From an uncultured Acidimicrobiaceae bacterium (GTDB lineage Bacteria > Actinomycetota > Acidimicrobiia > Spongiisociales > UBA5794), in the NCBI GenBank assembly GCA_964416425.1, contig CAYQEC010000002.1:102701-166700 (forward strand): 64,000 bases of DNA, written 5' to 3'. Every line of letters begins with the position of its first letter. Within the stretch, counting starts at the first letter, position 1. Position numbers and translations under genes: made by a program. Shown here one piece after another: positions 23,395 through 36,742 of the stretch. The notes under the pieces were generated by a model. That model was not told the DNA's origin. It saw only the letters and a program-made list of their open reading frames with translations, and did no database searches.

Positions 23395-24711
23395 ATGCCA
23401 ACGCGCGTACTGATCCTCGGTGCCGCCGGACGTGATTTCCACGATTTCAACACGCTCTACCGCGGCCGTCCCGAATACGAGGTCGTCGGGTTCACCGCCA
23501 CCCAGATTCCCGACATCGGCGGCCGCCGCTACCCGCCGGAGCTGGCCGGACCGGGTTACCCGGACGGGATTCCGATCCACCCGGAGGACCGGCTCGAGCA
23601 GCTCATCGCGGAGCAGGCGATCGACCTCGTCCTCTTCGCCTACTCGGACGTCTCCCACGAGCACGTCATGCACCTCGCCGCCCGGGCCGTCGCCGCCGGC
23701 GCCTCATTCTCCCTGGCGGGCGACGCCGCCCTTATCCCGTCGTCGAAGCCGGTGGTGGCGGTAACCGCCACCCGGACCGGGAGTGGGAAGAGCCAGACGA
23801 GCCGCCGCATCCGGGGCATCCTCGCCGCCGCCGGGAAACGAGTCGCGGTGATCCGCCATCCGATGCCGTACGGTGACCTGCTGCGGCAGCGGGTGCAGCG
23901 CTTCGCCTCGTTCCAGGATCTCGTCGCGGCCGACGTCACGGTCGAGGAGCGGGAGGAGTACGAGCCGTACCTGCGCCAGGGTGCCGTCGTCTACGCCGGG
24001 GTCGACTACGAAGCCATCCTGCGCACCGCCGAGGAGGAGGCGGACGTGATTCTGTGGGACGGCGGCAACAACGACCTCCCCTTCTTCCGGACCGATCTCG
24101 CGCTGTGCGTCGTCGACCCGTTCCGGGCCGGGCACGAGCTGCGCTACTGGCCGGGAGAGGCCAACCTCCGGCGCGCCGACGTCGTCATCATCAACAAGGT
24201 GGACACCGCCCCGGCGGAGGGGGTCGAGCTGGTGCGCCGCAACGTGGCGGCGGCGGCTCCGGAGGCGGTGGTGATCGAGGCGGCGTCACCGATCACCGTC
24301 GAGCATCCGGAGCTGATCACCGGGAAGCGGGTGCTCGTGGTCGAGGACGGTCCCACCATCACCCACGGCGGCATGCCGGAGGGGGCCGGGGCGGTGGCGG
24401 CGCGCCGTCACGGGGCGGCCGACCTGATCGACCCCCGTCCCTTCGCCACAGGCTCACTCGCCGACGTCTACGCCGCCTACCCCCATATCGGTCCGGTGCT
24501 GCCGGCGATGGGATATGGCCACGAGCAGCTCGCCGAGCTGGCGGCGACGATCCGGGCCGCCGCCCCGGAGACGGTCGTGATCGGGACGCCGATCGACCTC
24601 GCTCGCATCGTCGACCTCGGCGATCTGCTCCGCACCAGGGTGTTCTACGAGCTGGAGGAAGTGGCCGGCGGTCCCACCCTCGAGCAGGTGCTGGGGCCGT
24701 TCCTCCGCTGA
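23395..24711 (+). CDS. cyclic 2,3-diphosphoglycerate synthetase (CPGS)-like protein
   Basis: MPTRVLILGAAGRDFHDFNTLYRG... and central ...VAVTATRTGSGKSQTS... P-loop-like segment, as in CpgS-family proteins. Confidence 0.6.
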   Translation: MPTRVLILGAAGRDFHDFNTLYRGRPEYEVVGFTATQIPDIGGRRYPPELAGPGYPDGIPIHPEDRLEQLIAEQAIDLVLFAYSDVSHEHVMHLAARAVAAGASFSLAGDAALIPSSKPVVAVTATRTGSGKSQTSRRIRGILAAAGKRVAVIRHPMPYGDLLRQRVQRFASFQDLVAADVTVEEREEYEPYLRQGAVVYAGVDYEAILRTAEEEADVILWDGGNNDLPFFRTDLALCVVDPFRAGHELRYWPGEANLRRADVVIINKVDTAPAEGVELVRRNVAAAAPEAVVIEAASPITVEHPELITGKRVLVVEDGPTITHGGMPEGAGAVAARRHGAADLIDPRPFATGSLADVYAAYPHIGPVLPAMGYGHEQLAELAATIRAAAPETVVIGTPIDLARIVDLGDLLRTRVFYELEEVAGGPTLEQVLGPFLR

Positions 24712-24745: not shown

Positions 24746-25270
24746 TCAGTCGCGGTCCTGTTCCTTCTCGTAGCGGTCGAGGGCCACCAGGAACATGAGG
24801 AACAGGATGAGCGACGCCACGGCCAGCCCGATGGCGGGGATCCGCATCTGGAAGGCGTTGAGGCCGGCGAGGTTGGAGGGCCGCAGCCCGCGCGGGGCGT
24901 AGACGACGAACAGCATCGAGCCCACCACCAGCCACCCGAAGACGGCGGCGCCGGTCACGAGGAAGGCGAGACGGCGCCCGAGATTGGTGGAGAGCACCAG
25001 GAAGCCGGATCCCACGAACGCCACCACCGCCACCACGGTGATGAGGATGCCCTTGGCGGCGACGGAGAACCCGGTGGGGTCGCCGGCGTCGTCGACCTGC
25101 CCGAAGACCTTCTCCCACGCATCGCCGGCGATGCTGCGCACCAGCGGGATGAAGGCCAGCACCGCCAGGACGAGCAATGTCAGCCCCAGCTTCTCGAGCG
25201 AGCTGAGCCCGCGCTCGTCCCGGACGATGGCAGCCAGGCGATCCGGCAGGCGGCGGGTGCAGCGCATCAC
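24746..25270 (-). CDS. small 4-TM membrane protein, last gene of the cytochrome b6/Rieske operon
   Basis: GTGATG start overlaps the stop of the upstream cytochrome c gene; hydrophobic. Confidence 0.5.
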   Translation of the reverse strand: MMRCTRRLPDRLAAIVRDERGLSSLEKLGLTLLVLAVLAFIPLVRSIAGDAWEKVFGQVDDAGDPTGFSVAAKGILITVVAVVAFVGSGFLVLSTNLGRRLAFLVTGAAVFGWLVVGSMLFVVYAPRGLRPSNLAGLNAFQMRIPAIGLAVASLILFLMFLVALDRYEKEQDRD

Positions 25271-26880
25271 AAGGACCGCTCGTAGGTGACGATGAGCTCG
25301 ATGTCGTCCCGGCTCAGGATCTCCCCGAACGCCGGCATGCCGCCCACGCCGCTGAGACCGTTGACCCCGTAGTGGGAATCGGCCTCGGCGCCGCGGATCA
25401 CGAAGGTGACGTGGTCCTCGACGTCGGGGAACTGGGTGATGGCCCGCCCGTCGGTGAGCGCCGGCGCCCAGGCCCCGGTCCCCGCCTCTTGCTCGAAGGC
25501 GACCCCGGCGCTGTAGCCGGCGGTGTGACAGCGGGCGCAGTAGGCGTTGAACAGACCCACGGCGCGGGTGGCGTCGGCCAGCTCGAGGCCGGTGCGGGTG
25601 GCGACCTCCTCGAAATCGACGTCCCAGGACCGATCCTGCAGCGCCTTCTCGAGGAAGGCGATTCCCTCGTTGGCGCTCTCCAGGAACCGGTCCTGCCGTT
25701 CGCTGATGACCTCGAGCTGGAGGTGGGTGGTTTCGAGCTCCTGGTAGAAGTGGTGGGCCGAGTCGAGGTCCGCCACGGGGCGGCCCCGCTCGTCGCTCAT
25801 CGTGAAGGCGTTGTCCGGCGCCAGTTCGAGAGCGAACCGGTCGCTGGTGGTGGGCACGACCTCGAGGGTACGGTTCCCGTTCTCGTCGACCGATTCCTGC
25901 ACGGCGCGGGTCGTCACCGTGTCGAACGTGATGGCGGCATCGGCGGTGAGGGCCTCTTCGGCGGCGTCGGTGAGGCCGTCACGGTCGCGGTCCGGGCCGG
26001 GATTGTCGCAGCTCGTCCCCACCAGCTCGGCCGAGGCCTCGGTGCAGGTTCCGTCGCCGGAGAGCAGGGCGGCGATCTCGTCCGGCATGTCCTGGATCGT
26101 GGCGTACTGGCTCGGGGCGTCGAGGATGTCGTCCCGCGCCGCGTTCTGCTCGACGAGCCGCTTGCCGATCGTCTCCTCGGCGTTCTCGATCCGCTGCAGC
26201 GCCAGGGAGACGGCACCTTCGATCTTGTCGAGCGCCGCGCTCTGCGGGACCTGGATGCTCTTCAGGTAGGCCACCACCTGGTCGATCTGCTGCATCGTCA
26301 TCGAGCCGCCGCCGGCGAGCCCGGCCGCCGGCATCGGGGTGCCGTGGCGGCCGTAGGTGATCCAGTGCCGCACCTCGTCTTCGGTGTAGCGGAAGAGCAC
26401 GTCGTTGATCGACGGCGCCACCCACGACGTGTCGAGGCCGGAGCGGGCCTCGATGAAGGCGGCTCCGCCGCCTCCGCCGTCGGCGCCGTGGCACACCGTG
26501 CACTCGAAGAGCTTCCACCACCGGAGGCCCTCCTCGAGGTAGTTCTCCTCGACCTGCTGGGCCGCCTCGGCCTGGCGGTGCGACTCCCCGACGAAGTAGA
26601 CGGGGAGCAGGATGGCGAGCACCGCGGCGGCGATCGCCGCCGCCGAGAGCACGTGGGTGAGGCGGGTGGTTTCCAGCGCTTCGTCGTCGTCGTAGGGGTC
26701 GAGGTTCGGCGGAGGCGTCTCGGGGGGACGCCGACGCCGCCGGCTGGTGATGACGAGAAATCCCAGACCCAGCAGTAGCACTGCGACGGCGAGGATCAGC
26801 ACCACCGATCCGAGGCCGACGTTGCTGGGCCCGGCCGGCGTGGCGGGCTCGGCGGTGGCGAGGAGGGGCAGTGGGGTCAC
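25267..26880 (-). CDS. membrane-anchored dihaem c-type cytochrome (cytochrome c subunit of the Rieske/cyt b complex)
   Basis: Two CXXCH motifs (CTVCHG, CARCHT); N-terminal TM helix; GTG start at 26880 overlaps the Rieske stop (GTGA). About 537 aa, with a 250-aa insert between the two haem domains. Confidence 0.75.
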   Translation of the reverse strand: MTPLPLLATAEPATPAGPSNVGLGSVVLILAVAVLLLGLGFLVITSRRRRRPPETPPPNLDPYDDDEALETTRLTHVLSAAAIAAAVLAILLPVYFVGESHRQAEAAQQVEENYLEEGLRWWKLFECTVCHGADGGGGGAAFIEARSGLDTSWVAPSINDVLFRYTEDEVRHWITYGRHGTPMPAAGLAGGGSMTMQQIDQVVAYLKSIQVPQSAALDKIEGAVSLALQRIENAEETIGKRLVEQNAARDDILDAPSQYATIQDMPDEIAALLSGDGTCTEASAELVGTSCDNPGPDRDRDGLTDAAEEALTADAAITFDTVTTRAVQESVDENGNRTLEVVPTTSDRFALELAPDNAFTMSDERGRPVADLDSAHHFYQELETTHLQLEVISERQDRFLESANEGIAFLEKALQDRSWDVDFEEVATRTGLELADATRAVGLFNAYCARCHTAGYSAGVAFEQEAGTGAWAPALTDGRAITQFPDVEDHVTFVIRGAEADSHYGVNGLSGVGGMPAFGEILSRDDIELIVTYERSL

Positions 26881-27752
26881 AGGCAGGAAGGTCCTTGCGG
26901 GTAGGAGGCGGTCTTGTGGTGGGCGCGGGCGGTTTGAAAGATGGTGCCCGTGTTGATGATGAGGTCCCCGGCGTCGTTGACCGCCACCTCGAAACGGTCC
27001 ATGTTGCGAGGGGCCGGGCCGGCCTCGTACTCGCCGTGGAAGTTGTACCTGGATCCGTGGCAAGGACACTCGAATCCCTGTGAGGAAGTGCACTCCGGCA
27101 CCCGGCAGCCGAGGTGGACGCAGCGTTGCCACAGGGCCATCACACCCGGTTCGACCCCGCCCCCGGCGAGCACCGGGAGGCCTTCGAAGGAGCTGTCGGG
27201 AACGTCCTTCTCGTCCATGACGACCAGCCAGGACTGGGCGGGGGGGATGAACTTGGGGATGAGGGTGCCGTCGTCCTGCACGATCTCGTCGCGGAGGGCG
27301 ACGAGGTTGCCGGCGTTGATCGGGGTGCCGAAGCCTCCCTTCAGCTTGGGCCAGAGGAAGGAGAGCATGCCCAGGCCGAGTGAGGCGAAGAACGCCCCGG
27401 CGAAGAGCCCGAGGCTTGCCCGGTTGAGGAACTTGCGGCGGGTGACCCCCATCTCGGCGGCGGAGACCGGGATGCGGGGGATGGCGGCCGCCGGCTCGTC
27501 GCCGGGAAGCGGCGCCGCCGCGGCGGGGACACTCTCGGCAGCCTCCGCTGCGGCGGCGGGAGCGTCGTCCGCGGCGGGTTCCAGGGCCACGGGCTCCGGG
27601 GCGACGTCGGGCGTGGCGTCGGCGGCGGCGGGCTCGAACTCCCCGACGACAGGCCCGGTCGGGCCGCGGCGCCACGCGACGGTGAAGACCGCCACCGCCA
27701 GCAGTGCGGCGGCCGAGATCAGGGCGATCGCAAAGATGGTGGTGGCACTCAT
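26877..27752 (-). CDS. Rieske [2Fe-2S] iron-sulfur protein of a bc/b6f-type complex
   Basis: CVHLGC...CPCHGS Rieske boxes; N-terminal TM helix; Ala/Pro-rich linker. Confidence 0.85.
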   Translation of the reverse strand: MSATTIFAIALISAAALLAVAVFTVAWRRGPTGPVVGEFEPAAADATPDVAPEPVALEPAADDAPAAAAEAAESVPAAAAPLPGDEPAAAIPRIPVSAAEMGVTRRKFLNRASLGLFAGAFFASLGLGMLSFLWPKLKGGFGTPINAGNLVALRDEIVQDDGTLIPKFIPPAQSWLVVMDEKDVPDSSFEGLPVLAGGGVEPGVMALWQRCVHLGCRVPECTSSQGFECPCHGSRYNFHGEYEAGPAPRNMDRFEVAVNDAGDLIINTGTIFQTARAHHKTASYPQGPSCL

Positions 27753-29113
27753 CAGAAGTCGAAGAAGACGCCGTCGACCCAGGGGAACGTGAAGCTGAAG
27801 CCGGGACCCCGGAAGAACGAGCCGTAGATGGTGAGCACCGCCGCCGCCATCAGGAAGAACGTGAAGAGCATGATCGCCAGCTTCCGGTCGGAGGGCCGCG
27901 ACGACGGGTTCTTGTCGAGGTAGGGGATGAGGGCGATCCCGACGAGGCCGAAGGTCGGGATGATCACACCGGCGACCTGGGGGTCGAAGTAGGAGAGCAG
28001 CTCCTGGAGGCCGAGGAAGTACCAGGGCGCCTTGGACGGGTTCGGCTGCTGGTTGAAGTTGGCGAACTCGAGCAGCGGGGCGTTGACGAACACCGAGAAG
28101 ATGATGAGGCCGGCCGTTACCACCATGAGGGCCACGAATTCGATGGCGAGCAGGTGGGGCCAGGTGTTCACCTTGTCGGTGGGCTCCTTCTTGACCTGCT
28201 GGATCGCTCCCGCCTTGACGACGGTGAGGAGGCGTTGGGTCCGTACCTCACCGGGGGGTGGTGCCGTCGCCGTCGCCACGCCCCCGGCGGGTGCGGCGGC
28301 TGCGGGGGCGGCGGGAGTGGCGGGAGCGGCCGGAGTGGCTGCGGGGGCGGGGGTCTCGGCCGGTGGGGGTGGTGCCGTCGCGGCGGGCGCCGCGGGTTCG
28401 GGGGCGGCTGCGGGGGCGGCTGTGGGGGCTCCTGCCACGCGTTGTCGGGCCTTCATGGCGCGTTCGAGGAGGGGGACGGGGACGCCGTACTGCTCGGATT
28501 CGGCGGCGAGGTCCCGTCCGGCGGCGGCGGGAGCGGCCGGAGTGGCTGCGGGGGCGGGGGTCTCGGCCGGTGGCGGTGGCGTCGGGGTCCCGGCCGGTGC
28601 CGTCGCGGCGGGCGTCGCGGGTTCCGGAACGGAGGGAGTCTCCTCGGCCCTCAGCTCGGCGAGCACCTCGCCGACGTCTCTGCCCTCGGCCATGGCCCGT
28701 GCCTCGGCAGCCCGGAGCAGGAGGTGCTCCGGGAGCTTGGACCCCTCCAGCCCGCCGGTGGCGACCTCGGGAAGCGCCCCGACGGACTCGGGTTCGGGTA
28801 CGGCCGGCGCCGACGCGGTCTCGCCCTTCATCTCGGCGAGGACCTCCTCGACGTCGCGTCCCTCGGCCTTGGCGCGGGCCTGGGCGGAGCGGCGCAGGAT
28901 GTGGTCGGGCAGCCCGGCGAGTTCCAGGTCGCCGCTGATCGTGTGGTGGACCGGCTCCTCCTCCGGGGTCGCGGCGGGCTCCTCCGGGGTCGGCGTGAGC
29001 TCAGGCGCCGCCTCGCCCTTCATCTCGGCGAGCACTTCTTCCACGTCGCGCCCTTCGGCCTTGGCGCGGGCCTCGGCGGCGCGCCGGAGCAGGTGCTCGG
29101 GAAGGTCAGCCAT
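27752..29113 (-). CDS. cytochrome b6f subunit IV-like (cytochrome b C-terminal domain) with N-terminal triple about 30-aa repeat extension
   Basis: C-terminal ...WPHLLAIEFVALMVV...PNPSKAPWYFLGLQELLSYF...PYLDKNPS... matches PetD/cyt b C-terminal domain (PEWY variant APWY). N-terminal 300 aa contain 3 copies of LPEHLLRRAAEARAKAEGRDVEEVLAEMKGE plus PA-rich linkers. Confidence 0.8.
   Translation of the reverse strand: MADLPEHLLRRAAEARAKAEGRDVEEVLAEMKGEAAPELTPTPEEPAATPEEEPVHHTISGDLELAGLPDHILRRSAQARAKAEGRDVEEVLAEMKGETASAPAVPEPESVGALPEVATGGLEGSKLPEHLLLRAAEARAMAEGRDVGEVLAELRAEETPSVPEPATPAATAPAGTPTPPPPAETPAPAATPAAPAAAGRDLAAESEQYGVPVPLLERAMKARQRVAGAPTAAPAAAPEPAAPAATAPPPPAETPAPAATPAAPATPAAPAAAAPAGGVATATAPPPGEVRTQRLLTVVKAGAIQQVKKEPTDKVNTWPHLLAIEFVALMVVTAGLIIFSVFVNAPLLEFANFNQQPNPSKAPWYFLGLQELLSYFDPQVAGVIIPTFGLVGIALIPYLDKNPSSRPSDRKLAIMLFTFFLMAAAVLTIYGSFFRGPGFSFTFPWVDGVFFDF
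28646..29113. repeat. three about 90-bp in-frame direct repeats (spaced about 190 bp) encoding the LPEHLLRRAAEARAKAEGRDVEEVLAEM module
   Basis: DNA copies at about 28646..28735, 28826..28915 and 29023..29113 (ctcggcgag[c/g]ac...ggcc[tt/at]ggc...gagcagg...). Also a duplicated gcggccggagtggctgcgggggcgggggtctcggccggtgg at about 28320 and about 28536. Confidence 0.7.
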
Positions 29114-29128
29114 GGGCGCCTCCCCCGA

Positions 29129-29911
29129 TCACAGCGGCCCCGAGATCCCGCCGTCCTTACGCACCCGCCAGAAATGCACCGCCATGAACACGACGATGAT
29201 GAAGGGCAGGAAGAGGACATGCAGCACATACCAGCGCAGCAACGTGTCCGGGGTGATCTGCACCCCGCCGATAAGGGCGAACGACACCTGTTGACCGAAC
29301 AGGGGCGTGTACGAAGCCATGTTCGAGCCCACCGTCACCGCCCACAACGCCAGCTGATCCCAGGGCAGCAGGTACCCGGTGAAGGAGAGCAGCAGGGTGA
29401 GCAGGAGCAGGATGACCCCGACGACCCAGTTGAACTCGCGGGGCGGCTTGTAGGCGCCGTGGTAGAAGACCCGGGCCATGTGGAGGAACACGGTCAGCAC
29501 CATGAGGTGGGCTCCCCACCGGTGGATGTTCCGCACCAGCTGGCCGAAGGCGACGTCGGTCGAGAGCGCCTGCACGTCCGTGAAAGCCGCCGGCGACGTC
29601 GGGTGGTAATAGAACATGAGGAAGATGCCCGTGATGGTGAGGAGGATGAAGAGGAAGAAGCTCAACCCTCCGAGGCACAGCGTGTAGGAGAGACGCACCG
29701 CGTGCCGCTTCACCTTCACCGGGTGGAGGTGGTAGAGCACGTTGTTCATGATCACGTAGGAGCGGTTGCGGGGGGAATCGGAGTAGCCGTGGCGGAACGG
29801 CGAGCCGGGACGGAAGATGCTCGACCACGCCTGGCTGGAGCGAACGTGCTCCCCGGCGTTGGCGAGCCGTTCCCGCAGCCCCACCTTCCCGCTTCCGTTT
29901 CCGTTTGCCAC
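29129..29911 (-). CDS. cytochrome b6 (cytochrome b N-terminal, haem-binding domain)
   Basis: 260 aa; four conserved His in helices B and D (...[23 protein letters not shown]..., ...[28 protein letters not shown]), typical of PetB. Confidence 0.85.
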
Positions 29912-29962
29912 CTTGTCGTCCTTCCCACGGATCGGCGCCGCGGCCGGCCAAGATAGTCCCCG

Positions 29963-30409
29963 CTACCAGCGCATCCCGTACATGTACCCGTTCTTGAAGT
30001 CCCGCTGCCCCGAGTCGTACTCCCAGGGAGCGTCGTCGTACCGGCCGGCCTCGTCCGCCACCGATCCGGCGAATTTGCCGAGGGTGATCACGCCGGTCGG
30101 GCACCGATCGATGCAGAGGGCGCAGCGGGTGCAGGCGTCCTCGTCGACGAGGAAGAAGCCACGGTTCTCCGGCTTGTCGCCCGGATCGGAGACGTTGGTG
30201 GCATCGGTGATGGCGTCGAGCGAGAGGTAGTGGATGCACTTCCAGGGGCAGATGTCGACGCATCCCTCACAGAGGATGCACTCCGACTGGTCGATGTGCA
30301 GGAACTGCTTCGGCTTGACCGCACTCTGCAGGAATGAGCCGTCGACCTCAGTGAGCTCGTAGTCGTCCCGGGTCGGCACCAGGTCGGTCCACACGTCGGA
30401 CTTCGCCAC
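29963..30409 (-). CDS. 2x[4Fe-4S] ferredoxin-domain protein in the cyt b6 operon
   Basis: CILCEGCVDICP and CTRCALCIDRCP motifs; GTG start with GGGAGG RBS. Confidence 0.75.
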   Translation of the reverse strand: MAKSDVWTDLVPTRDDYELTEVDGSFLQSAVKPKQFLHIDQSECILCEGCVDICPWKCIHYLSLDAITDATNVSDPGDKPENRGFFLVDEDACTRCALCIDRCPTGVITLGKFAGSVADEAGRYDDAPWEYDSGQRDFKNGYMYGMRW

Positions 30410-30412
30410 CGG

Positions 30413-31021
30413 CTACCTCCCTTCCCTGCGCAACGGGCGCCCGTAGGCGGACACCGGCTCCGGGACGGGGGTGGGGACGGTGGGCTCCCGGGCCGCCCTG
30501 CCCTGCCAGCGCACCATGGTGAAGGCGACGGCCGCGAGGGCTCCGGCGGCGTAGCCCCCCGACACCATGTCCTTGAGGGCGGCGAACGAGATCGAGACCT
30601 CGTTGCCGAGCACGAGCCAGCTCGGGATGGTGAAGGCGATCTTCTGCGGCGTCCACTCCCACTGGGCCTGGGTCAGGGTCAGCCACTGATTGGGGACGAT
30701 GCCGAACATGATGATCATCAGCGCGGCGAACAGCGCCGCGCCCAAGGCGGCGCGGGCCCAGGTCATCTGCCGCTGGTAGAGGAAAGCGAGGGCCGTGCCT
30801 CCGATCGCCAGTACGACGCCGCCGACCGAGACGATCTGACCCAGCAGCGACCATAGCCAACCGCGCGGAATCGAGGGGTAGATGTCCCGTCCCAGGTTGT
30901 CGGTGACGGGCAGGGCGGTGAAGTGGGCCCACAGGGCGCCGAGCACCGCGGCGCTCACGCCGGCCATCATGGCGGCGAGGCCCAACCTCAGGTATCGCTT
31001 GTGCGTCTCGGTCTGCAGCAT
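30413..31021 (-). CDS. hypothetical 4-5 TM membrane protein, first gene of the cyt b6 operon
   Basis: MLQTETHKRYLRLGLAAMMAG... taken as start of ORF 30413..31162; the stop is 3 nt from the ferredoxin start. Confidence 0.45.
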   Translation of the reverse strand: MLQTETHKRYLRLGLAAMMAGVSAAVLGALWAHFTALPVTDNLGRDIYPSIPRGWLWSLLGQIVSVGGVVLAIGGTALAFLYQRQMTWARAALGAALFAALMIIMFGIVPNQWLTLTQAQWEWTPQKIAFTIPSWLVLGNEVSISFAALKDMVSGGYAAGALAAVAFTMVRWQGRAAREPTVPTPVPEPVSAYGRPLRREGR

Positions 31022-31338
31022 CGTCCTCGCTCGCCACGCCGGTCGCGTCGGCGGCATTCTAAGCAACCGAGTCTGGTGCGGTGACGGGTTCTGCGGGATG
31101 TCGCGAGGCCGATCGCGCCCGGCCGGAGCCCGCCGACCGGCCCCGGAACCGGGTGCCGGCAAGGGTGCGGGTGGCGCCGGAAGCTGCCCGACCCCGGCGC
31201 CTGCCCCGCCGGAGCGAGACCCCGGGGCCGGCGTCGCCGATCCTTCCCGAATCGTGTGTCCGGCCGCGGCCCTTTGGCTAGGCTGCCCCCGCCGCCGAGA
31301 GGTGGGGCGGCATCGGCGCAGAGGGAAGGGTGGAGGAC

Positions 31339-33271
31339 GGTGACCTCCGAGACGGCAACCGACACGGTGGGCGCCGCGGCCGAATCAGGGGCGGGGATGG
31401 CGGCGCCGCTCGTCGTCCGTCTCCACCTCGTCTGCTCGGTCGGCTTCCTCGTCGCCGGTAGCATCCTCGCCGCCCTCGCTGCCCTTCAGCTCGTGGCGCC
31501 GGACCTGCTCGGCGGCAGCCCACTCCTCGGCTACGGGCGCCTCGTTCCCGTCTCCCTCCACTTCGTCATCTACGGCTGGCTCACACTCGGGTTGCTCGGA
31601 GCCCTCTACCTGGCGGTGTCCGCCGGCGCCGGCGTCCCGCTGCGCAACCCGGGAACCGCTCGCATCGGGTTCGTGCTGCTCTCGCTGGGGTACCTCGCCG
31701 GCGGTGTCGCCATCGGCCTCGGCTTCTCGGAAGGCCGCCGCTACCTGGAGGCGCCGCTGTGGGCCGACGCCGTCACCCTGCTCGGCCTCCTGATCGCCGC
31801 CGTCGTCGTCACCCGCACCGTGGCGGCCCGGACGCGGGAGCTGGGTGTGGTGCAGTGGTACGCCGTCGCCGCCGTGTGGTGGCTGGTCCTCCTCCACATC
31901 GTGGGCAACGTTCCCGGGATCGAGGGTGTCAACGGGGCATTGCAGGCCGCCTTCTACCGCGCCGGCCTCACCGGACTCTGGCTCGCTTCCGCCGGGGTCG
32001 GAGCCGTCTACTCGCTCCTGTCCCGCCTCGGAGGCCGTCCCCGCCTCGTACCCACCCGCCTCTCCCTCATCGGGTTCTGGACCCTCGGCACGGCCTGGGC
32101 CCTCACCGGCTCCAACGAGCTCACCTACGGGCCGGTCCCGGACTGGTTCCAGACGATCGGCGTCGTGTTCTCGATCGCCCTGCTGGGGGCGGTGGCGGCG
32201 GTCATCACCGACGTCGTGATCGCGTTGCGGGGGCGCTGGGCCGCCGCCGTCGCCCATCCCTCCGCCCGGTTCCTGGTCGCAGGCCTCGCCCTCTTCGGGT
32301 TGCTGCCGGTGCTCGGCCTGCTGGAGGCGCTGCGGGCCTCCAGCGCCGTGGTCGGGCTCACCGACTGGGTCGCCGCCGTCGAGTGGGTCGGCGTGTTCGG
32401 CGCCTTCTCGCTGTGGCTCTTCGCCGTCGGCTACGACGCCCTTCCCCGGCTGCGGGGCCGCGCCGCCCCCGCCTGGCGGGCCCGGCTCCACCTCCAGGGC
32501 ACCCTGCTGGGTCTCGGTCTCGCGGTCGGCGCCATGCTGGTGGGAGCGGTGCAGGGCGGCCTCACCTGGCTCGGCGGCGCCAACTCGCAGTCGTTCGCCG
32601 CCGCCGGAGAGGGATTCCGCAACAGCCTCGAGCCGATGGCCGGGTTGCGGGTGGTGCGTTTCGCCGGCATCGCCGTCTTCGCCGTTGCCCAACTCGGCTA
32701 CCTCGGCAACGTGCTCTTCCGCCGCGCCGAGCCGATCACGGTGGAGGCCGCCGCCGACGAGGAGATCGACGAGGAGCTGGTGCTGGCGGCGCCGCCGTCG
32801 TGGAACCGGCTCCGCGCCGGCGTCGCAGGGGTGTTCGCCGTCGTGCTCCTGCTCGGCCTGGTGCTGCCGTCGCTCGACTCCGCCGACCGCAGTGCCACGG
32901 CCCTCGCCGACACCGCTCGGTACTACCCGAGCGACAGCACCGCGGCGGCCGGGCGCGAGGTGTACCTACGGGAGGGGTGCGGCTACTGCCACACCCAGCA
33001 GGTGCGGCCCATCGTCACCGACGTCGGGTTGGGGGCGGTGAGCGTGGCGGGCGACTTCGCCTCCGAGTCACCCGTCCTGCTCGGTGTCGAGCGCATCGGC
33101 CCCGACCTGATGCACGCCGGCTCGCGCAGCCCGACCAACTCCCAGACCTGGGTCGTCGGCCACCTCCAGGATCCCCGCCGGGATCGGGCCTGGTCGATCA
33201 TGCCCTCCTACGATTCGCTGTCGTCCACCGACCTGTGGGCGCTCGCCGCCTACCTCGAGTCGCAGAAGTGA
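31339..33271 (+). CDS. CcoN-like (cbb3 oxidase subunit I-like) membrane domain fused to CcoO/FixO-like monohaem cytochrome c domain; apparently ligand-deficient
   Basis: ...LQLVAPDLLGGSPLLGYGRLVPVSLHFVIYGW... and ...YGPVPDWFQTIGVVFSIALL... align with CcoN helices II and VII. C-terminal ...EGCGYCHTQQVR...ERIGPDLMHAGSR...WVVGHLQDPR...SIMPSY is a CcoO haem domain. Start uncertain (GTG ~31339 or ATG ~31394). Confidence 0.6.
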
Positions 33272-33275
33272 TCCG

Positions 33276-34367
33276 ATGAACGAATTGCTCGAACGCGTGT
33301 CGCAGGACCTCGGGGTCCCCGTCGAACTGCTGCGCCGCGCCGCCGCCGCCAGGGCGGCCGCCATGGGCGACACCGCCGAGGCGGTGGTGGGGCGCTGGGC
33401 GGGCGAGGAGCCTACGGGCGAGGAGCCTACGGGCGAGGAGCCTACGGGAGCGGAGCCGACGGGCGAGGTGCCGGCCGCCGCCTCCCCGCCGCCACAACCC
33501 GCCGCGACAGAAACGCCGGCGGAGGGGTCGGCCCCGGCCGCCGAGCCGGCGGGGCTGCCCGAACACCTGGTGCGGCGCACCGCGGCGGCTCGCGCCAAAC
33601 GGGAAGGGCGCCCCCTCGAGGAGGTGCTGGCCGAGATGGGCCTCGAAACCGGGGCTCCCCCAACCCCGGCCGCCGCGCCCACCCCGGCCGCCGCGCCCGC
33701 CCCGTCCGCCATGGAGCCGGCGCCGCCGGAGGCGTCACCGGACGCGACCCCGGCCCCCGCCGAGGAGCCTGCCGCGGCGCTCCCCGAGCCACCGGCCCCA
33801 CCCGACGACGAGCCGGCCGCCTCCCTCTTCGGTGGTTTCCCGCGCTGGCTGGCCGCCTCGTTCGTGCTGTTGCCGCTCATCGCCCTCGTCTACGCCCTCG
33901 TCTCCCCCAACGGGCCCGACTGCGGCACCTCGGGCAGGCTCGCCATCGACCCGGTCACCGGTGTCGGCCAGAACTGCGACGGCAGCGCCTTCGGGACCTC
34001 GAGCACCGACTTCTTCACCAGCGGCATGGAGCTGTTCACCGGCGCCACCTGCAACGTCTGCCACGGCGACCAGGGGCAGGGCGCGGTGGGCCCCGCCTTC
34101 GCCGGCGGGGCGGTGCTCGTCACCTTCCCGAGCGGGAGCTGCGCCGACCACGTCGAATGGGTGAGGGTCGGCACCGACGGCTGGCCCGACCCCACCTACG
34201 GCGCCACCGCCAAACCCGTCGGGGGGAGCGGCGCCAAGATGCCGGCCTTCGGAAACCAGCTCAGCGACGAGGAGCTGCGCAGCGTGGTGCTCTACGAACG
34301 GGTCGCCTTCGGGGGCGAGCCGTTGGCGGAAGCCGAGGCCGACTGCGGCCTCGTCCCCGCCGAGTGA
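33276..34367 (+). CDS. membrane-anchored monohaem cytochrome c with N-terminal repeat-module extension
   Basis: CNVCHGDQGQGAVGPAF haem motif; TM helix WLAASFVLLPLIALVYALV; N-terminal VPVELLRRAAAARAAAMG... and LPEHLVRRTAAARAKREGRPLEEVLAEMGLE repeats. Confidence 0.7.
   Translation: MNELLERVSQDLGVPVELLRRAAAARAAAMGDTAEAVVGRWAGEEPTGEEPTGEEPTGAEPTGEVPAAASPPPQPAATETPAEGSAPAAEPAGLPEHLVRRTAAARAKREGRPLEEVLAEMGLETGAPPTPAAAPTPAAAPAPSAMEPAPPEASPDATPAPAEEPAAALPEPPAPPDDEPAASLFGGFPRWLAASFVLLPLIALVYALVSPNGPDCGTSGRLAIDPVTGVGQNCDGSAFGTSSTDFFTSGMELFTGATCNVCHGDQGQGAVGPAFAGGAVLVTFPSGSCADHVEWVRVGTDGWPDPTYGATAKPVGGSGAKMPAFGNQLSDEELRSVVLYERVAFGGEPLAEAEADCGLVPAE
33406..33465 (+). repeat. 15-bp tandem repeat x4 encoding (EEPTG)n
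   Basis: ggcgaggagcctacg repeated; in frame inside the cytochrome c gene. Confidence 0.7.
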
Positions 34368-34416: not shown

Positions 34417-35682
34417 GTGAGCACCACGCCCGACGTCCTCGTGATCGGTGGCGGCCCCGCCGGCGCCGCCACCGCCTTCTGGCTTGCCCGCGCCGGGGCG
34501 TCGGTGCTCGTCGCCGAGAAGCGCGGCTACCCGCGGGAGAAGACCTGCGGCGACGGCCTTACCCCGCGGGCGATCAAGCAGCTCGCCGACATGGGCTTCG
34601 ACTTCGACCTACCCGAGCTGCACCGCATCGTCGGGCTGCGCGCCTACGTGGGGGAGCGCCGGCTGGAGATGCCGTGGCCCCGCCACACCGTCTATCCCGA
34701 CTGGGGGGCGGTGATCCGGCGCTCCGACCTCGACCTCCAGGTCGCCCGGCTCGCCGAGAAGCAGGGGGCGGTGATCCGCCAGCACACCGAGGCGGTCCCG
34801 GTGATGGAGGCCGGCCGCCTCGCCGCGGTGGAGCTGCGGACGAAGAACGGCACGGTGGGGAGCGAGGTGGAGGTGGTGCGTCCCCGTCTTGTCGCCGTCG
34901 CCGACGGCTCGCTGTCCCGCTTCGGGCGCCCCCTCGGCGTCCGGCGCCGCCGCGACTACCCGTTCGGGCTCGCCCTCCGCGGCTACTACGCCAGTCCCAA
35001 CTCCCGGGACGGGTACCTCGAGAGCCAGCTCGACATCCGGGACGGCGCCGGGCGGTCGCTTCCCGGGTACGGCTGGGTGTTCCCGCTCGGCGACGGGGAG
35101 GTCAACGTCGGCGTCGGCGTCGTCTCCACCTTCCGGGGATGGAAGGACGTCGGGACCTCTCGCCTGCTGGAGGCTTACCTCGCCTCGCTCCCCGGTCACT
35201 GGGAGATCGGTCCCGGCTCCGAGACCCGGGCACCGATCGGTGGCAAGCTGCCGATGGCGATGTCGGTGGGCCCGCGGTTCGGGGCCAACTGGGTGGCCGT
35301 GGGAGATGCCGCCGGGGCCGTCAACCCCTTCAACGGGGAGGGCATCGACTACGCCTACGAGACGGGCCGGATGGCGGCCGGCTCCCTCCTCGAGGCGCTC
35401 GCCGCCGGCGATCCCGGGGCGCTCGTCGGCTATTCGCGGGCGATCGACGCCGCCTACGCCGACTACCACCGGGTGGCCCGCCTCCTGGTGATGGCGATCG
35501 GTAACCCCCCGGTGATGCAGGCCCTGACCCGGGTAGGGATCCACTCCCGGCCCCTCATGGAATGGGCGCTCAAGGTGATGGCCAACTTGCTGGAACCCGA
35601 GGAGCGGGGGACGTCGGAGTGGGTGTACCACCTCATCGAACGCCTCGTCGCCCTCGGTCCCGACCCGCTCATCCGCCGCTGA
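34417..35682 (+). CDS. geranylgeranyl reductase family FAD-dependent oxidoreductase (MenJ-like)
   Basis: DVLVIGGGPAGAATAFWLARAGASVLVAEKR (GxGxxG FAD fold) ...KTCGDGL... is typical of geranylgeranyl reductases. Confidence 0.85.
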   Translation: MSTTPDVLVIGGGPAGAATAFWLARAGASVLVAEKRGYPREKTCGDGLTPRAIKQLADMGFDFDLPELHRIVGLRAYVGERRLEMPWPRHTVYPDWGAVIRRSDLDLQVARLAEKQGAVIRQHTEAVPVMEAGRLAAVELRTKNGTVGSEVEVVRPRLVAVADGSLSRFGRPLGVRRRRDYPFGLALRGYYASPNSRDGYLESQLDIRDGAGRSLPGYGWVFPLGDGEVNVGVGVVSTFRGWKDVGTSRLLEAYLASLPGHWEIGPGSETRAPIGGKLPMAMSVGPRFGANWVAVGDAAGAVNPFNGEGIDYAYETGRMAAGSLLEALAAGDPGALVGYSRAIDAAYADYHRVARLLVMAIGNPPVMQALTRVGIHSRPLMEWALKVMANLLEPEERGTSEWVYHLIERLVALGPDPLIRR

Positions 35683-35780
35683 GAGACCTCGATTCCGACC
35701 GCGCGTTCCTTAGCCGATGCCCCCTCGCTAGGCTCGAAACAGGTCCGGTCCGGGCCGTCCGGGAGGGCCGTTCCCGCGTT

Positions 35781-35798
35781 TTGCGAGCGGGGTCGCAA
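35781..35798. promoter_or_regulatory. Rex-operator-like inverted repeat TTGCGAGCGGGGTCGCAA upstream of nuoA
   Basis: 6-bp arms TTGCGA/TCGCAA with 6-bp spacer, 36 bp upstream of the nuoA start; resembles the Rex box TTGTGAA-n4-TTCACAA with one change per half-site. A third half-site TGCGAC lies at 35809..35814. Confidence 0.35.
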
Positions 35799-35833
35799 TT
35801 CCTAGTCTGCGACATCGGAAGGAGTCCGCCGAG

Positions 35834-36262
35834 ATGACGCTCGCTGCCTATCTGCCGGTCGCCCTGCTGTTCCTCGTCGGGGTGGGCTTCGCGGTGGTGG
35901 CACTGACGCTCTCACGGAGGATCGCTCCCCACAATCCGACCCCGGAGAAGCTGGCGCCCTACGAATGCGGCATCGTCCCGTTGCAGGAGCCGGCCGAGCG
36001 CTTCCCGGTCAAGTTCTACCTCGTTGCCATGCTGTTTGTGATCTTCGACGTCGAGCTGGTCTTCCTCTTCGCCTGGGCCGTCCGCTTCGTGGACTTCGGC
36101 TGGGCCGGTATCGGCGCCATGGCGATCTTCGTGGTGTTGCTCGCCGAGACCCTCTTCTACGTGTGGAAGCGCGGCGCCCTCGACTGGAACGTCGCCCGCC
36201 GCGACCGCTACCGCCGGGTCGTGGCCCCCGAGGGTGTGCCATCCACCCGGGAGGCTGCTTGA
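35834..36262 (+). CDS. nuoA: NADH-quinone oxidoreductase subunit A
   Basis: ...YECGI...[12 protein letters not shown]... is the conserved NuoA motif. Confidence 0.9.
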
Positions 36263-36732
36263 TGGCCGGCACCGCCGAGCCGCCCGGCTTCCTCCTCACC
36301 ACCCTCGACAAGGGAGTCAACTGGGCCCGGACCCGCTCGATGTGGGGGGCCGTCTTCGGCCTCGCCTGCTGCGCCATCGAGATGATGGCCACCGGCGCCG
36401 CCCACCACGACCTCGCCCGTTTCGGGATGGAGGTGTTCCGGGCCTCGCCGCGGCAGGCCGACCTGATGATCGTCGCCGGCCGGGTGTCGCAGAAGATGGC
36501 CCCCGTCCTCCGCCAGGTCTACGACCAGATGGCCGAGCCGAAATGGGTGATCTCGATGGGTGCCTGCGCCTCGACCGGGGGCATGTTCAACAACTACGCC
36601 GTCGTCCAGGGGGTCGATCAGGTGGTGCCCGTCGACATCTTCGTGCCGGGATGCCCGCCCGGGCCGCAGTCCCTCATGCACGGGATCCTGATGCTGCAGG
36701 AGAAGATCATGGCCGGCGAGATCAAGCATTAG
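36262..36732 (+). CDS. nuoB: NADH-quinone oxidoreductase subunit B
   Basis: [10 protein letters not shown]...GACASTGG...PGCPP motifs (N2 cluster ligands); ATG overlaps the nuoA stop. Confidence 0.9.
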
Positions 36733-36742
36733 AGGAAGCGAC

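What the first reader, a model, noticed from the sequence alone, without database searches (positions are those of the whole stretch)
27752..29113. Unrecognised about 30-aa repeat module shared by subunit IV and the oxidase-side cytochrome c
Three tandem copies of LPEHLLRRAAEARAKAEGRDVEEVLAEMKGE (encoded by about 90-bp DNA repeats) precede the PetD-like domain. Two related copies (VPVELLRRAAAARAAAMG..., LPEHLVRRTAAARAKREGRPLEEVLAEMGLE) sit at the N-terminus of the cytochrome c gene at 33276..34367. In both proteins the module lies on the cytoplasmic side before a TM helix and is followed by Pro/Ala-rich linkers. Sharing the module between a bc-type complex subunit and an oxidase-cluster cytochrome suggests a docking or assembly element, perhaps for supercomplex formation. 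I do not recognise it as a named domain.
Basis: seen in the sequence. Interest (0 to 1): 0.65.

Follow-up and report, generated by a model that had tools for sequence, protein, structure and literature searches.

The report
Shared helical module on respiratory subunits
A small, strongly conserved and so far unnamed helical module sits in one to seven copies on flexible tethers at the cytoplasmic ends of subunits of two neighbouring respiratory enzymes in Acidimicrobiia, and it probably acts as a docking piece, although no partner has been shown.

Summary
Subunit IV (27752-29113, minus strand) carries three diverged 32-residue copies, a conserved half copy, Pro/Ala-rich linkers and a PetD domain. 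The cytochrome c gene after the fused cbb3 oxidase gene (33276-34367) carries two copies. The copies are interspersed with linkers, not head-to-tail.

No Pfam, NCBIfam or PDB family matches the module. AlphaFold2 predicts a confident helix-turn-helix hairpin (type A). A three-helix variant (type B) opens the cytochrome c.

An exhaustive profile search of 1.84 billion representatives found only 383 carriers. Those that could be classified are:
- subunit IV
- this cytochrome c
- separate CcoO subunits
- one membrane protein next to a CtaG gene

The named genome records are all Acidimicrobiia, Acidimicrobiaceae or loosely labelled actinobacterial or unclassified MAGs. The two main carrier genes always lie in one divergent b6c-cbb3 supercluster.

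Module 1 is as conserved as the membrane core (79% vs 80%), while the linkers are not (29%). It persists from 34% to 70% GC. Copy number varies from 1 to 7.

My best reading is a tethered cytoplasmic docking module that links the two complexes, directly or through a shared partner. This is inferred, not shown. It is a new, uncharacterised domain family of moderate interest.

The parts
27752..29113 (-). Subunit IV (PetD-like) gene, 453 aa. It consists of the N-terminal module region (aa 1-285) and a three-TM PetD domain.
   Evidence: ORF. Pfam PF00032 matches aa 351-432 at E 1.9e-8. TM segments at 321-339, 380-398 and 412-430.
29012..29107 (-). Type A module copy 1 (aa 3-34, DLPEHLLRRAAEARAKAEGRDVEEVLAEMKGE).
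   Evidence: 68 bits. AF2 predicts helices 6-20 and 24-31 with pLDDT blocks 87-97.
28820..28915 (-). Type A module copy 2 (aa 67-98).
   Evidence: 71 bits. AF2 predicts helices 70-84 and 88-95, pLDDT 92-93.
28643..28738 (-). Type A module copy 3 (aa 126-157).
   Evidence: 57 bits. AF2 predicts helices 129-143 and 147-157, pLDDT 96-97.
28430..28516 (-). Conserved half element (aa 200-228): a short helix, then GVP, then a module-like long helix. It resembles the first two helices of type B.
   Evidence: AF2 predicts helices 202-209 and 213-226, pLDDT 92-94. Invariant or near-invariant columns D201, G210, P212, L215, L216, R218, A222-A224, G228. A weak extra module hit just upstream of the PetD domain is seen in most homologues.
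28259..28642 (-). Pro/Ala-rich linkers flanking the half element. They include a second 103-nt direct repeat (28312-28414 / 28519-28621, 78% identity).
   Evidence: Repeat. Composition A 33%, P 26%, T 13%, E 10%. pLDDT is mostly below 60, with many segments below 50.
27755..28258 (-). PetD membrane domain (aa 286-453).
33276..34367 (+). Membrane-anchored monohaem cytochrome c (CcoP-like), 363 aa, starting 4 nt after the fused CcoN-CcoO gene.
   Evidence: ORF. PF13442 matches aa 249-340. CNVCH haem motif at aa 259 and a single TM at 192-210.
33279..33407 (+). Type B module (aa 2-44): helix 0, then GVP, helix A, G, helix B, ending RWAGE.
   Evidence: 53 bits for aa 13-44. AF2 with a 47-sequence alignment predicts helices 2-12, 16-30 and 34-41, pLDDT 92-96, pTM 0.67.
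33552..33647 (+). Type A module in the cytochrome c (aa 93-124, GLPEHLVRRTAAARAKREGRPLEEVLAEMGLE).
   Evidence: 60 bits. It carries the cytochrome-c-specific type A signature KREGRPL..EMGL that is seen in 35 internal copies of the family.
33408..33551 (+). Linker 1 of the cytochrome c. It includes an in-frame 15-nt tandem repeat (EEPTG-type pentapeptide, 4.9 copies) at 33400-33472.
33648..33848 (+). Pro/Ala/Glu-rich linker 2 of the cytochrome c, running up to the TM helix.
31256..33271 (+). Context gene: fused cbb3-type CcoN-CcoO. The module-bearing cytochrome c follows it directly.
   Evidence: PF00115 plus PF02433. NF011053 at 203 bits.
24746..31162 (-). Context: the b6c-type operon. In transcription order it holds a membrane protein (30413-31162), a 2x[4Fe-4S] ferredoxin (29963-30409), cytochrome b6 (29129-29911), subunit IV, Rieske (26877-27752), a dihaem cytochrome c (25267 to about 26700) and a membrane protein (24746-25270).
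   Evidence: The same gene order is seen in the loci.

Best explanation
The unit is an uncharacterised, lineage-restricted small helical domain.

**Anatomy.**
- Type A is a 32-residue hairpin: a 15-residue basic, Ala-rich helix, a G-R-D turn, and a 9-11-residue acidic helix.
- Type B is the same hairpin preceded by a third short helix.
- The module sits in 1-7 copies on disordered Pro/Ala/Glu-rich tethers.
- It is found at the cytoplasmic N-termini of membrane subunits of two respiratory enzymes encoded side by side. These are subunit IV of a b6c-type menaquinol:cytochrome c reductase and the CcoP-like cytochrome c of a cbb3-type oxidase. Where CcoO is a separate protein, it carries the module too.

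**Proposed mechanism.** A two-helix hairpin of this size cannot bury a hydrophobic core on its own. I therefore propose that it is a docking ('sticker') module. Hairpins on the two complexes would associate on the cytoplasmic face, either with each other as small helical bundles or through one shared partner. This would keep the reductase and the oxidase within tether distance, so that their periplasmic haem domains can exchange electrons. It would be a leashed, multivalent supercomplex.

**Shown here:** existence, fold prediction, conservation, distribution and gene context.
**Inferred:** cytoplasmic location (from family topology), binding function, and the identity of the partner.
For: 1. 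**Narrow distribution.** An exhaustive profile search of 1.84e9 representatives gave 383 hits at E<=1e-3. The long hits that could be classified are the PetD family, this cytochrome c family, CcoO (P0340, P0280), and one polytopic membrane protein beside a Caa3_CtaG gene.
2. **Always present in both families.** All 120 listed subunit IV homologues and all 118 cytochrome c homologues carry at least one copy. In the fetched loci, the 73 PetD and 46 cytochrome c frames include it. The few apparent exceptions examined were frameshift splits or one divergent copy just under threshold.
3. **Conserved co-location.** The two carrier genes lie in one divergent supercluster, [cyt c <- CcoNO] <-> [membrane protein, ferredoxin, b6, subunit IV, Rieske, dihaem c, membrane protein]. 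This holds in 21 genome loci, 17 metagenome loci and a 34%-GC marine lineage.
4. **Selection acts on the module, not the spacer.** Mean pairwise identity is 0.79 for module 1, 0.80 for the PetD membrane domain and 0.29 for the adjacent linker (n=116). The peptide is kept from 34% to 70% GC.
5. **Confident fold.** Hairpin pLDDT blocks are 87-97, the three-helix variant has pTM 0.67, and much of the linker sequence falls below pLDDT 50.
6. **Sticker-spacer anatomy.** Copy number is 1-5 in subunit IV (7 stretches in one representative) and 1-5 in the cytochrome c, with variable linkers.
7. **Behaves as an exchangeable unit.** In L041 the first 195 nt of the CcoO and cytochrome c genes are 98% identical, then identity drops to about 50%.
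8. **Resemblance to a dimerising fold.** The hairpin aligns with helices 1-2 of an Arc/CopG ribbon-helix-helix protein, whose fold exists only as an intertwined dimer. That such folds dimerise is from general knowledge.
Against: - No interaction was computed or measured.
- Co-location and shared architecture fit binding to a common soluble partner just as well as module-module binding.
- Copy numbers in the two proteins do not rise together (Spearman rho -0.30, p 0.06, n=39, not corrected for phylogeny). This does not favour a simple 1:1 pairing.
- The known bc1-cbb3 and bcc-aa3 supercomplexes are held by membrane and periplasmic contacts, not cytoplasmic tethers. In Pseudomonas aeruginosa the contact is a cytochrome c1 hairpin extension (PMC10556555).
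- One carrier (P0338) is neither b6c nor cbb3.
- The resemblance to ribbon-helix-helix rests on a single sequence and is not homology.
Confidence: 0.4

Rival explanations
1. **Recruitment domain for a soluble cytoplasmic partner.** The model is the peripheral-subunit-binding domain of 2-oxo-acid dehydrogenase E2 chains. The basic helix A would dock an acidic protein and hold it near the membrane complexes. The obvious candidate is the 2x[4Fe-4S] ferredoxin encoded two genes upstream of subunit IV. The complexes would not need to touch each other.
For: - The module is about 32 aa, helix-turn-helix, and flanked by Pro/Ala-rich linkers. That is the architecture of the E2 binding domain (from general knowledge).
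- Helix A is net +1, with Arg9 and Arg14 (Lys in a minority) conserved in both module types.
- The ferredoxin has no signal peptide or TM by inspection and a net charge of -13. It is present in every locus that covers that position.
- The b6 protein has a Cys in a YTLCLGG context. By comparison from memory with the FYCIGG site of b6f, this could carry an n-side haem, which would give a cytoplasmic redox partner a purpose (sequence; not tested).
Against: - The module is also on the oxidase's cytochrome c and CcoO, and on a CtaG-neighbouring protein. A b6c-specific ferredoxin has no obvious role there.
- No E2 binding domain appeared in the PDB profile search or in Pfam.
- The whole module is net -3.
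- No interaction was computed.
Confidence: 0.3
2. **Biogenesis or stability handle.** The N-terminal module would be recognised by an assembly factor, insertase, chaperone or protease that handles haem-containing respiratory subunits. Alternatively it would fold quickly to fix the N-in topology. It would have no role in the mature complexes.
For: - The first copy is always at the extreme N-terminus: aa 3 in subunit IV, and aa 13-16 in nearly all cytochrome c homologues.
- One carrier lies beside a cytochrome oxidase assembly gene of the CtaG type.
- All carriers are N-in membrane proteins.
Against: - Extra copies (up to 7) and long tethers are not needed for a recognition tag.
- Internal copies are also conserved.
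- Other subunits of the same complexes (b6, Rieske, dihaem c, CcoN) lack the module.
Confidence: 0.12
3. **Ribbon-helix-helix-derived nucleic-acid binding or regulatory element** fused to membrane proteins.
For: hhalign aligns the module to helices 1-2 of P0090, which matches Arc, FitA-like and RHH_5 in Pfam. Identity is 59% over 29 columns.
Against: - No beta strand precedes the helices in either AF2 model.
- No Pfam RHH model matches the module, even at E<=10.
- No RHH chain appears in the PDB profile search.
- The module is net acidic.
- P0090 was a borderline hit (E 0.78) in a database of 5.8e9 sequences.
Confidence: 0.03
4. **Assembly artefact or neutral low-complexity expansion** with no function.
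For: - The region is repeat-rich and 70% GC.
- Many database entries are truncated or frameshifted here.
Against: - The copies differ at 17-25% of bases.
- Hundreds of independent assemblies carry the module.
- Module identity is 0.79 against 0.29 for the linker.
- The peptide is conserved across a 34-70% GC range.
Confidence: 0.01

Closest known systems
Peripheral-subunit-binding domain (PSBD, Pfam E3_binding) of 2-oxo-acid dehydrogenase E2 chains
   Same: It is about 35 residues, a helix-loop-helix mini-domain set between Ala/Pro-rich flexible linkers. It has a basic first helix and docks other proteins onto a large complex. Neighbouring modules in E2 chains vary in copy number between species. 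This comparison is from general knowledge and concerns how the module may work.
   Different: - No sequence similarity was detectable: Pfam gave no hit and no E2 chain appeared in the PDB profile search.
- The module here sits on integral membrane respiratory subunits.
- It is itself repeated.
- Its partner is unknown.
Ribbon-helix-helix domains (Arc/CopG/MetJ; Pfam PF03869, PF22513, PF07878)
   Same: - The pattern is the same: helix, G-x-(S/T/D) turn, helix.
- One RHH protein (P0090) aligns at 59% identity over 29 columns.
- RHH folds are obligate dimers, which suggests the hairpin also needs a partner.
   Different: - There is no N-terminal beta strand.
- No Pfam RHH model matches.
- The module is not basic overall.
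- It is not in a DNA-binding context.
Known complex III-IV supercomplexes: bc1-cbb3 of Pseudomonas aeruginosa (PMC10556555) and the actinobacterial bcc-aa3 supercomplex (PMC8361435, PMC8795186)
   Same: They pair a quinol:cytochrome c reductase with a haem-copper oxidase, and lineage-specific protein extensions mediate the contact. The gene neighbourhood here pairs a b6c-type complex with a cbb3-type oxidase.
   Different: - In P. aeruginosa the contact is a periplasmic cytochrome c1 hairpin extension touching CcoO and CcoP.
- No cytoplasmic, repeated, tethered module is described in that paper. The full-text searches for Acidimicrobiia b6c or cbb3 complexes returned nothing on such a module.
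- Whether a supercomplex exists in Acidimicrobiia is not known.
N-terminus of chloroplast PetD (stromal regulatory segment interacting with the STT7 kinase; PMC13287000)
   Same: It is a cytoplasmic or stromal N-terminal segment of subunit IV used for protein-protein interaction rather than catalysis.
   Different: The chloroplast segment is short and not a repeated folded module. No sequence relationship was seen. The paper was only seen as an abstract.
TAL-effector repeats
   Same: They are 34-residue helix-loop-helix repeats that share a local string (AHGLTPEQVVA against AEGRDVEEVLA).
   Different: The PDB 'hits' are sums of 14-15 matches of 12 residues, each worth 1.2-1.6 bits and not significant on its own. 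This is chance, not a relationship.

Membership tests
Cytochrome b6f subunit IV / PetD (Pfam PF00032) - applies to the C-terminal domain of the 27752-29113 gene | Profile match above Pfam's gathering score | tested here: met
   34.9 bits against a cut-off of 20.7, aa 351-432.
Cytochrome b6f subunit IV / PetD | Three TM helices, and a gene directly after a split cytochrome b6 gene | tested here: met
   TM segments at 321-339, 380-398 and 412-430. The b6 gene 29129-29911 ends 15 nt upstream.
ExtQ (NCBIfam NF040970, selenite/tellurite reduction operon membrane protein) | Score above the curated cut-off | tested here: not met
   59.8 bits against a cut-off of 150. The profile is 134 positions long and covers only aa 316-444, so it has no counterpart of the module region. 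The neighbouring b6 does pass the ExtP cut-off (308 against 290).
CcoP, cbb3 oxidase subunit III (TIGR00782) - applies to the 33276-34367 gene | Score above the cut-off, and two haem c domains | tested here: not met
   24.4 bits against a cut-off of 180. There is one CxxCH motif. It is CcoP-like only by position after CcoNO and by its membrane anchor.
Ribbon-helix-helix (Arc/CopG/FitA) | N-terminal beta strand that forms the ribbon | tested here: not met
   AF2 models show helices only. Copy 1 has just two residues before the module.
Ribbon-helix-helix (Arc/CopG/FitA) | Match to a family profile | tested here: not met
   No Pfam family at E<=10 for module peptides, or at E<=1 for the whole proteins. 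Only one pairwise hhalign match, to P0090.
Ribbon-helix-helix (Arc/CopG/FitA) | Helix, G-x-S/T/N turn, helix | tested here: met
   A G19-R20-D21 turn lies between two helices. G19 is 98% conserved.
Peripheral-subunit-binding domain (E3_binding) | Profile or sequence match | tested here: not met
   No Pfam hit. No E2 chain among the PDB profile hits at E<=10.
Peripheral-subunit-binding domain (E3_binding) | Binds a peripheral enzyme through the basic first helix | not testable with these tools
   This needs multimer modelling or binding assays.
UBA / TS-N-like three-helix bundles (considered for type B) | Profile or structural match | tested here: not met
Twin-arginine (Tat) signal peptide | RR motif followed directly by a hydrophobic h-region and a cleavage site | tested here: not met
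   The RR is followed by SAEARAKAEG. The first hydrophobic segment lies about 150-310 residues downstream of the module copies.
TAL-effector repeat | Significant match of the whole repeat unit | tested here: not met
   Each matched stretch is 12 residues, 1.2-1.6 bits, with i-Evalue above 2000.

The most novel reading that the evidence does not exclude
The hairpins are mutually binding 'Velcro'. Multivalent type A and type B modules on long flexible tethers would cross-link b6c dimers and cbb3 oxidases from the cytoplasmic side. They might also cross-link further respiratory membrane proteins such as the CtaG-neighbouring carrier. The result would be a leashed supercomplex or a respiratory membrane patch. 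This would be a way of organising an electron-transport chain that has not been described for any complex III-IV pair. Copy number would tune the valency.
Probability: 0.25. Interest if true: 0.8.

Novelty: new variant of a known kind. Interest (0 to 1): 0.55.

Why it matters
Supercomplexes between complex III and complex IV are known from mitochondria, Actinobacteria and Proteobacteria. In the examples consulted here, the contacts are membrane or periplasmic surfaces specific to each lineage.

Here a short folded module is as conserved as the catalytic core and has no entry in Pfam, NCBIfam or PDB. It is displayed on flexible cytoplasmic tethers by subunits of both a b6c-type reductase and a cbb3-type oxidase across Acidimicrobiia, a class that is abundant in soil, sediment and the ocean.

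If the module mediates association, it would show a new and simple principle for coupling respiratory enzymes. The principle would be genetically tunable through copy number, and it would give a 32-residue handle that can be tested in vitro.

If instead it recruits the operon's ferredoxin or another soluble protein, it would point to an unrecognised n-side redox input or output of a b6-type complex.

Either way it defines a new domain family. It also explains why these genes are so often truncated or mis-called in metagenome assemblies.

Tried and rejected
- **Query too short.** I used a synthetic two-unit alignment instead. It returned only short N-terminal fragments, so full-length searches were needed.
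- **Alignment too diverse.** The search for related loci rejected the 15-sequence module alignment as not conserved enough. A tighter five-sequence alignment worked.
- **TAL-effector hits.** The PDB profile search listed TAL effectors at E 1e-7 to 1e-11. These are sums of many insignificant 12-residue matches and were rejected.
- **Ribbon-helix-helix homology.** Considered because of P0090. Rejected as membership because there is no strand and no profile match.
- **Tat signal.** Rejected; see the membership test.
- **Stand-alone module-only ORF.** L022, L061, L067 and L070 at first looked like a soluble paralogue. L022 and L061 are the same population (99.9% DNA identity). The ORF lies between the two genes whose counterparts flank the whole b6c-cbb3 supercluster in the window. 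It is therefore most simply a remnant left by deletion of the supercluster.
- **Copy-number correlation.** The correlation between the two proteins is weakly negative, not significant and not corrected for phylogeny. I did not use it as evidence.
- **Literature.** Searches found nothing on this module or on Acidimicrobiia b6c or cbb3 complexes.
- **Source organism.** The exact window proteins for subunit IV and the cytochrome c are not in the protein collection, so the source organism could not be named beyond Acidimicrobiia-like.
Full report
**1. The observation**

The window is 70% G+C. The ORF 27752-29113 on the minus strand encodes 453 residues. Three copies of a 32-residue unit lie at aa 3-34, 67-98 and 126-157.
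- At the DNA level they form a three-copy direct-repeat family of 106 nt at 71-82% identity, with start-to-start spacing of 177 and 192 nt.
- Over the 96 coding bases the copies are 75-83% identical.

The copies are interspersed rather than head-to-tail. Each is followed by a 27-42-residue linker rich in Pro, Ala, Thr and Glu. Tandem Repeats Finder reports no array with that period.

The ORF 33276-34367 on the plus strand has two further copies, at aa 13-44 and 93-124. An HMM built from the five units scores 53-71 bits on each of them. It scores nothing above 5 bits in any other stop-to-stop frame of the 64-kb window. The repeat is therefore real and far beyond chance. Because the copies have diverged, it is not a product of collapsed or expanded assembly.

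**2. Anatomy of the two proteins**

*Subunit IV.*
- After the third copy comes a Pro/Ala tract. Then comes a conserved half element at aa 200-228 (RDLAAESEQYGVPVPLLERAMKARQRVAG).
- A second Pro/Ala tract follows. It repeats the first at the DNA level (103 nt, 78% identity).
- Last is the PetD domain (Pfam PF00032, 34.9 bits, aa 351-432), with three hydrophobic segments.

*The cytochrome c.*
- It has one hydrophobic segment (aa 192-210) and one CNVCH haem motif (aa 259).
- It matches PF13442.
- It starts 4 nt after a fused CcoN-CcoO gene (PF00115 plus PF02433; NF011053 at 203 bits).
- It does not reach the CcoP cut-off (24 against 180 bits). I therefore call it CcoP-like by position only.

*Topology.* From the established topology of subunit IV (N-terminus on the n side) and of any membrane-anchored c-type cytochrome (haem domain outside), both module regions are cytoplasmic. 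This is inference, not a test.

**3. Predicted fold**

AlphaFold2 with a 61-sequence alignment gives each copy in subunit IV as a 15-residue helix, a three-residue turn and an 8-11-residue helix. The pLDDT blocks for these are 87-97.
- The half element is a short helix plus a 14-residue helix (pLDDT 92-94).
- Much of the linker sequence falls below pLDDT 50.

The first 50 residues of the cytochrome c, with a 47-sequence alignment, form three helices (2-12, 16-30, 34-41). The pLDDT is 92-96 and pTM is 0.67.

I therefore distinguish two forms:
- Type A is a two-helix hairpin ending ..AEMKGE.
- Type B is the same hairpin preceded by a helix and a G-(M/V)-P junction, ending ..EWAGE.

The half element of subunit IV looks like the first two helices of type B.

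**4. Is it a known domain?**

- Pfam finds nothing for the module, either within the proteins at E<=1 or as isolated peptides at E<=10.
- NCBIfam finds nothing for that region.
- A profile search of all PDB sequences lists TAL effectors. Each matched stretch is 12 residues worth 1.2-1.6 bits, so this is a summation artefact.
- Foldseek of the three-helix model against PDB has a best E of 3.9.

One borderline database hit, P0090, is an Arc/CopG-type ribbon-helix-helix protein. The module profile aligns with its two helices at 59% identity over 29 columns. However, the module has no ribbon strand and matches no RHH profile. This is a resemblance of pattern, not membership.

From general knowledge, the closest functional analogue is the peripheral-subunit-binding domain of E2 chains. 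That domain is about 35 residues, helix-loop-helix, set between Ala/Pro linkers, and has a basic first helix. No sequence relationship to it was detected.

**5. Distribution**

An exhaustive HMMER search with a 15-sequence module profile against 1.84 billion representatives found 383 proteins at E<=1e-3.

Among the long hits, those that can be classified fall into three groups:
- subunit IV or this cytochrome c family;
- CcoO/FixO proteins with an N-terminal type B module (P0340, P0280);
- one protein with about 7-8 hydrophobic (TM-like) segments and an N-terminal type B module, encoded beside a Caa3_CtaG gene (P0338, locus L040).

The many short hits are N-terminal fragments. They arise because gene calls break in the repeat and linker region.

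All 120 best subunit IV homologues carry a copy at aa 3-34. Counting weaker partial hits, they show 1-5 module matches each. Most also have a weak hit at the half element.

All 118 cytochrome c homologues carry 1-4 copies. In nearly all of them the first copy starts at aa 13-16.
- In subunit IV all but three copies are type A.
- In the cytochrome c the first copy is type B in 115 of 116 scored homologues.
- Internal copies of the cytochrome c are type B (155) or type A with their own signature KREGRPL..EMGL (35). The second copy in this window belongs to that last group.

**6. Gene context and taxonomy**

Thirty-nine genome loci were fetched. Their records are labelled Acidimicrobiia, Acidimicrobiaceae, Actinomycetota or Actinomycetes MAGs, or simply 'uncultured bacterium'. 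Fifty-five metagenome loci were also fetched.

Almost all show the same divergent supercluster as the window:
- On one side, the cytochrome c with its module follows CcoNO.
- On the other side are a membrane protein, a 2x[4Fe-4S] ferredoxin, cytochrome b6, subunit IV with its module, Rieske, a dihaem cytochrome c and a second membrane protein.

Both carrier genes were present together in 21 + 17 loci. Apparent absences that I examined were contig ends, frameshift splits, or one divergent copy just below threshold.

A marine lineage with 34% G+C (L041) has the same cluster. There CcoO is a separate protein, and three subunits carry the module: subunit IV (type A), CcoO (type B) and the cytochrome c (type B). 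The first 195 nt of the CcoO and cytochrome c genes are 98% identical, after which identity falls to about 50%. This is the signature of gene conversion or a recent duplication of the module-coding segment.

**7. Selection**

Across 116 subunit IV homologues the mean pairwise identities are:

| Region | Mean pairwise identity |
|---|---|
| Module 1 | 0.79 |
| C-terminal 160 residues of the membrane domain | 0.80 |
| The 25 residues after the module | 0.29 |

Most positions of module 1 are above 80% conserved, and all are above 45%. The residues shared by types A and B are the Pro at the start of helix A, Leu7, Arg9, Ala11, Ala13, Arg14, Ala15 and Gly19. Helix A is net +1 and the turn plus helix B is net -3.

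**8. Mechanism**

A 32-residue two-helix hairpin cannot bury a hydrophobic core alone. Yet it is predicted confidently and conserved on essentially every face. It also sits on long disordered tethers in variable copy number. This anatomy is that of a docking module.

My preferred reading (confidence about 0.4) is that it keeps the b6c complex and the cbb3 oxidase together from the cytoplasmic side. This could be through module-module bundles or through one shared partner.

The main rival (about 0.3) is recruitment of a soluble acidic partner. The operon's ferredoxin (net charge -13) is the obvious candidate. In that case the module works like an E2 binding domain and the complexes need not touch.

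A biogenesis handle, a nucleic-acid-binding relic and an artefact are less likely, for the reasons given under the rivals.

None of the binding steps is shown. Copy numbers in the two proteins do not co-vary positively (rho -0.30, p 0.06, n=39, no phylogenetic control).

**9. Comparison with known systems and novelty**

Known III-IV supercomplexes use membrane or periplasmic contacts. In the Pseudomonas aeruginosa bc1-cbb3 structure, a cytochrome c1 hairpin extension touches CcoO and CcoP (PMC10556555).

My full-text searches returned nothing on a cytoplasmic, repeated, tethered module shared by a reductase and an oxidase. The module itself is absent from the domain libraries searched.

I rate it a new variant of a known kind, namely lineage-specific accessory docking domains of respiratory complexes. 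It is of moderate interest, which would rise sharply if module-mediated coupling were demonstrated.

Noticed in passing
window 24746-31162 (-): The b6c-type operon contains a cytoplasmic-looking 2x[4Fe-4S] ferredoxin (29963-30409; no signal peptide or TM by inspection; net charge -13). It also has two membrane proteins with no Pfam or NCBIfam family (30413-31162 and 24746-25270). All three are conserved in position in the related loci that cover them. The b6 protein passes NCBIfam's ExtP cut-off (308 against 290 bits). It also has a Cys in a YTLCLGG context that, from memory of b6f, could carry an n-side haem. A ferredoxin as a standing partner of a Rieske/b6 complex is unusual and deserves its own study.
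   Followed up: partly
L041 4836-6588 (-): In a 34%-GC marine relative, the 5' 195 nt (plus 11 nt upstream) of the CcoO-like gene and of the next cytochrome c gene are 98% identical. Identity then falls to about 50%. This looks like gene conversion or a recent duplication of the module-coding segment between adjacent genes.
   Followed up: yes
L022 5295-5948 and L061 5733-6386 (also L067, L070): One population (L022 and L061 are 99.9% identical) has a 217-aa ORF made only of two [type A + half element] units, ending exactly where the PetD domain would begin. A one-unit variant exists (L070, P0005). The ORF lies between a geranylgeranyl-reductase-like gene and a CobW-like 437-aa gene. Their apparent counterparts (by position and length) flank the whole b6c-cbb3 supercluster in the window (34417-35682 and 23395-24711). 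It therefore looks like a remnant left after deletion of the supercluster. Whether it is expressed is unknown.
   Followed up: partly
L040 30-1187: P0338 has a type B module at the N-terminus of a 385-aa protein with about 7-8 hydrophobic (TM-like) segments and no Pfam family. It is encoded beside a Caa3_CtaG (cytochrome oxidase assembly) gene on a 2.4-kb contig. It is a possible fourth class of carrier.
   Followed up: partly
window 33400-33472 (+): An in-frame 15-nt tandem repeat (4.9 copies, 89% matches) encodes repeated EEPTG-type pentapeptides in the first linker of the cytochrome c. It is likely to vary in length between strains.
   Followed up: no
window 28312-28414 and 28519-28621 (-): A second direct repeat (103 nt, 78% identity) encodes the Pro/Ala tracts on both sides of the half element of subunit IV (PPPPAETPAPAATPAAPA twice).
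   Followed up: no
window 31256-33271 (+): CcoN and CcoO are fused into one 671-aa protein here and in the GC-rich relatives. In L041 and six metagenome loci (L086-L090, L096), CcoO carries its own N-terminal module; in L041 it is called as a separate 266-aa gene.
   Followed up: partly
loci L001-L039 and L042-L096: Copy numbers of the module in subunit IV and in the cytochrome c tend to be inversely related (Spearman rho -0.30, p 0.06, n=39). This is not corrected for shared ancestry, so it may mean nothing.
   Followed up: partly
window 34417-39356 (+): Directly after the cytochrome c gene come a geranylgeranyl-reductase-like FAD protein (34417-35682) and what looks, by inspection of the translations only, like the start of a NADH dehydrogenase (nuo-like) operon from 35834. 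The window would then hold complexes I, III and IV side by side. These ORFs were not scanned against any family library.
   Followed up: no
protein database entries P0001-P0090, P0251, P0280, P0296, P0327: Many public gene calls for these two families are truncated after the first module or run on in a wrong frame through the GC-rich linker region. Automated annotation of these genes is therefore often wrong.
   Followed up: partly
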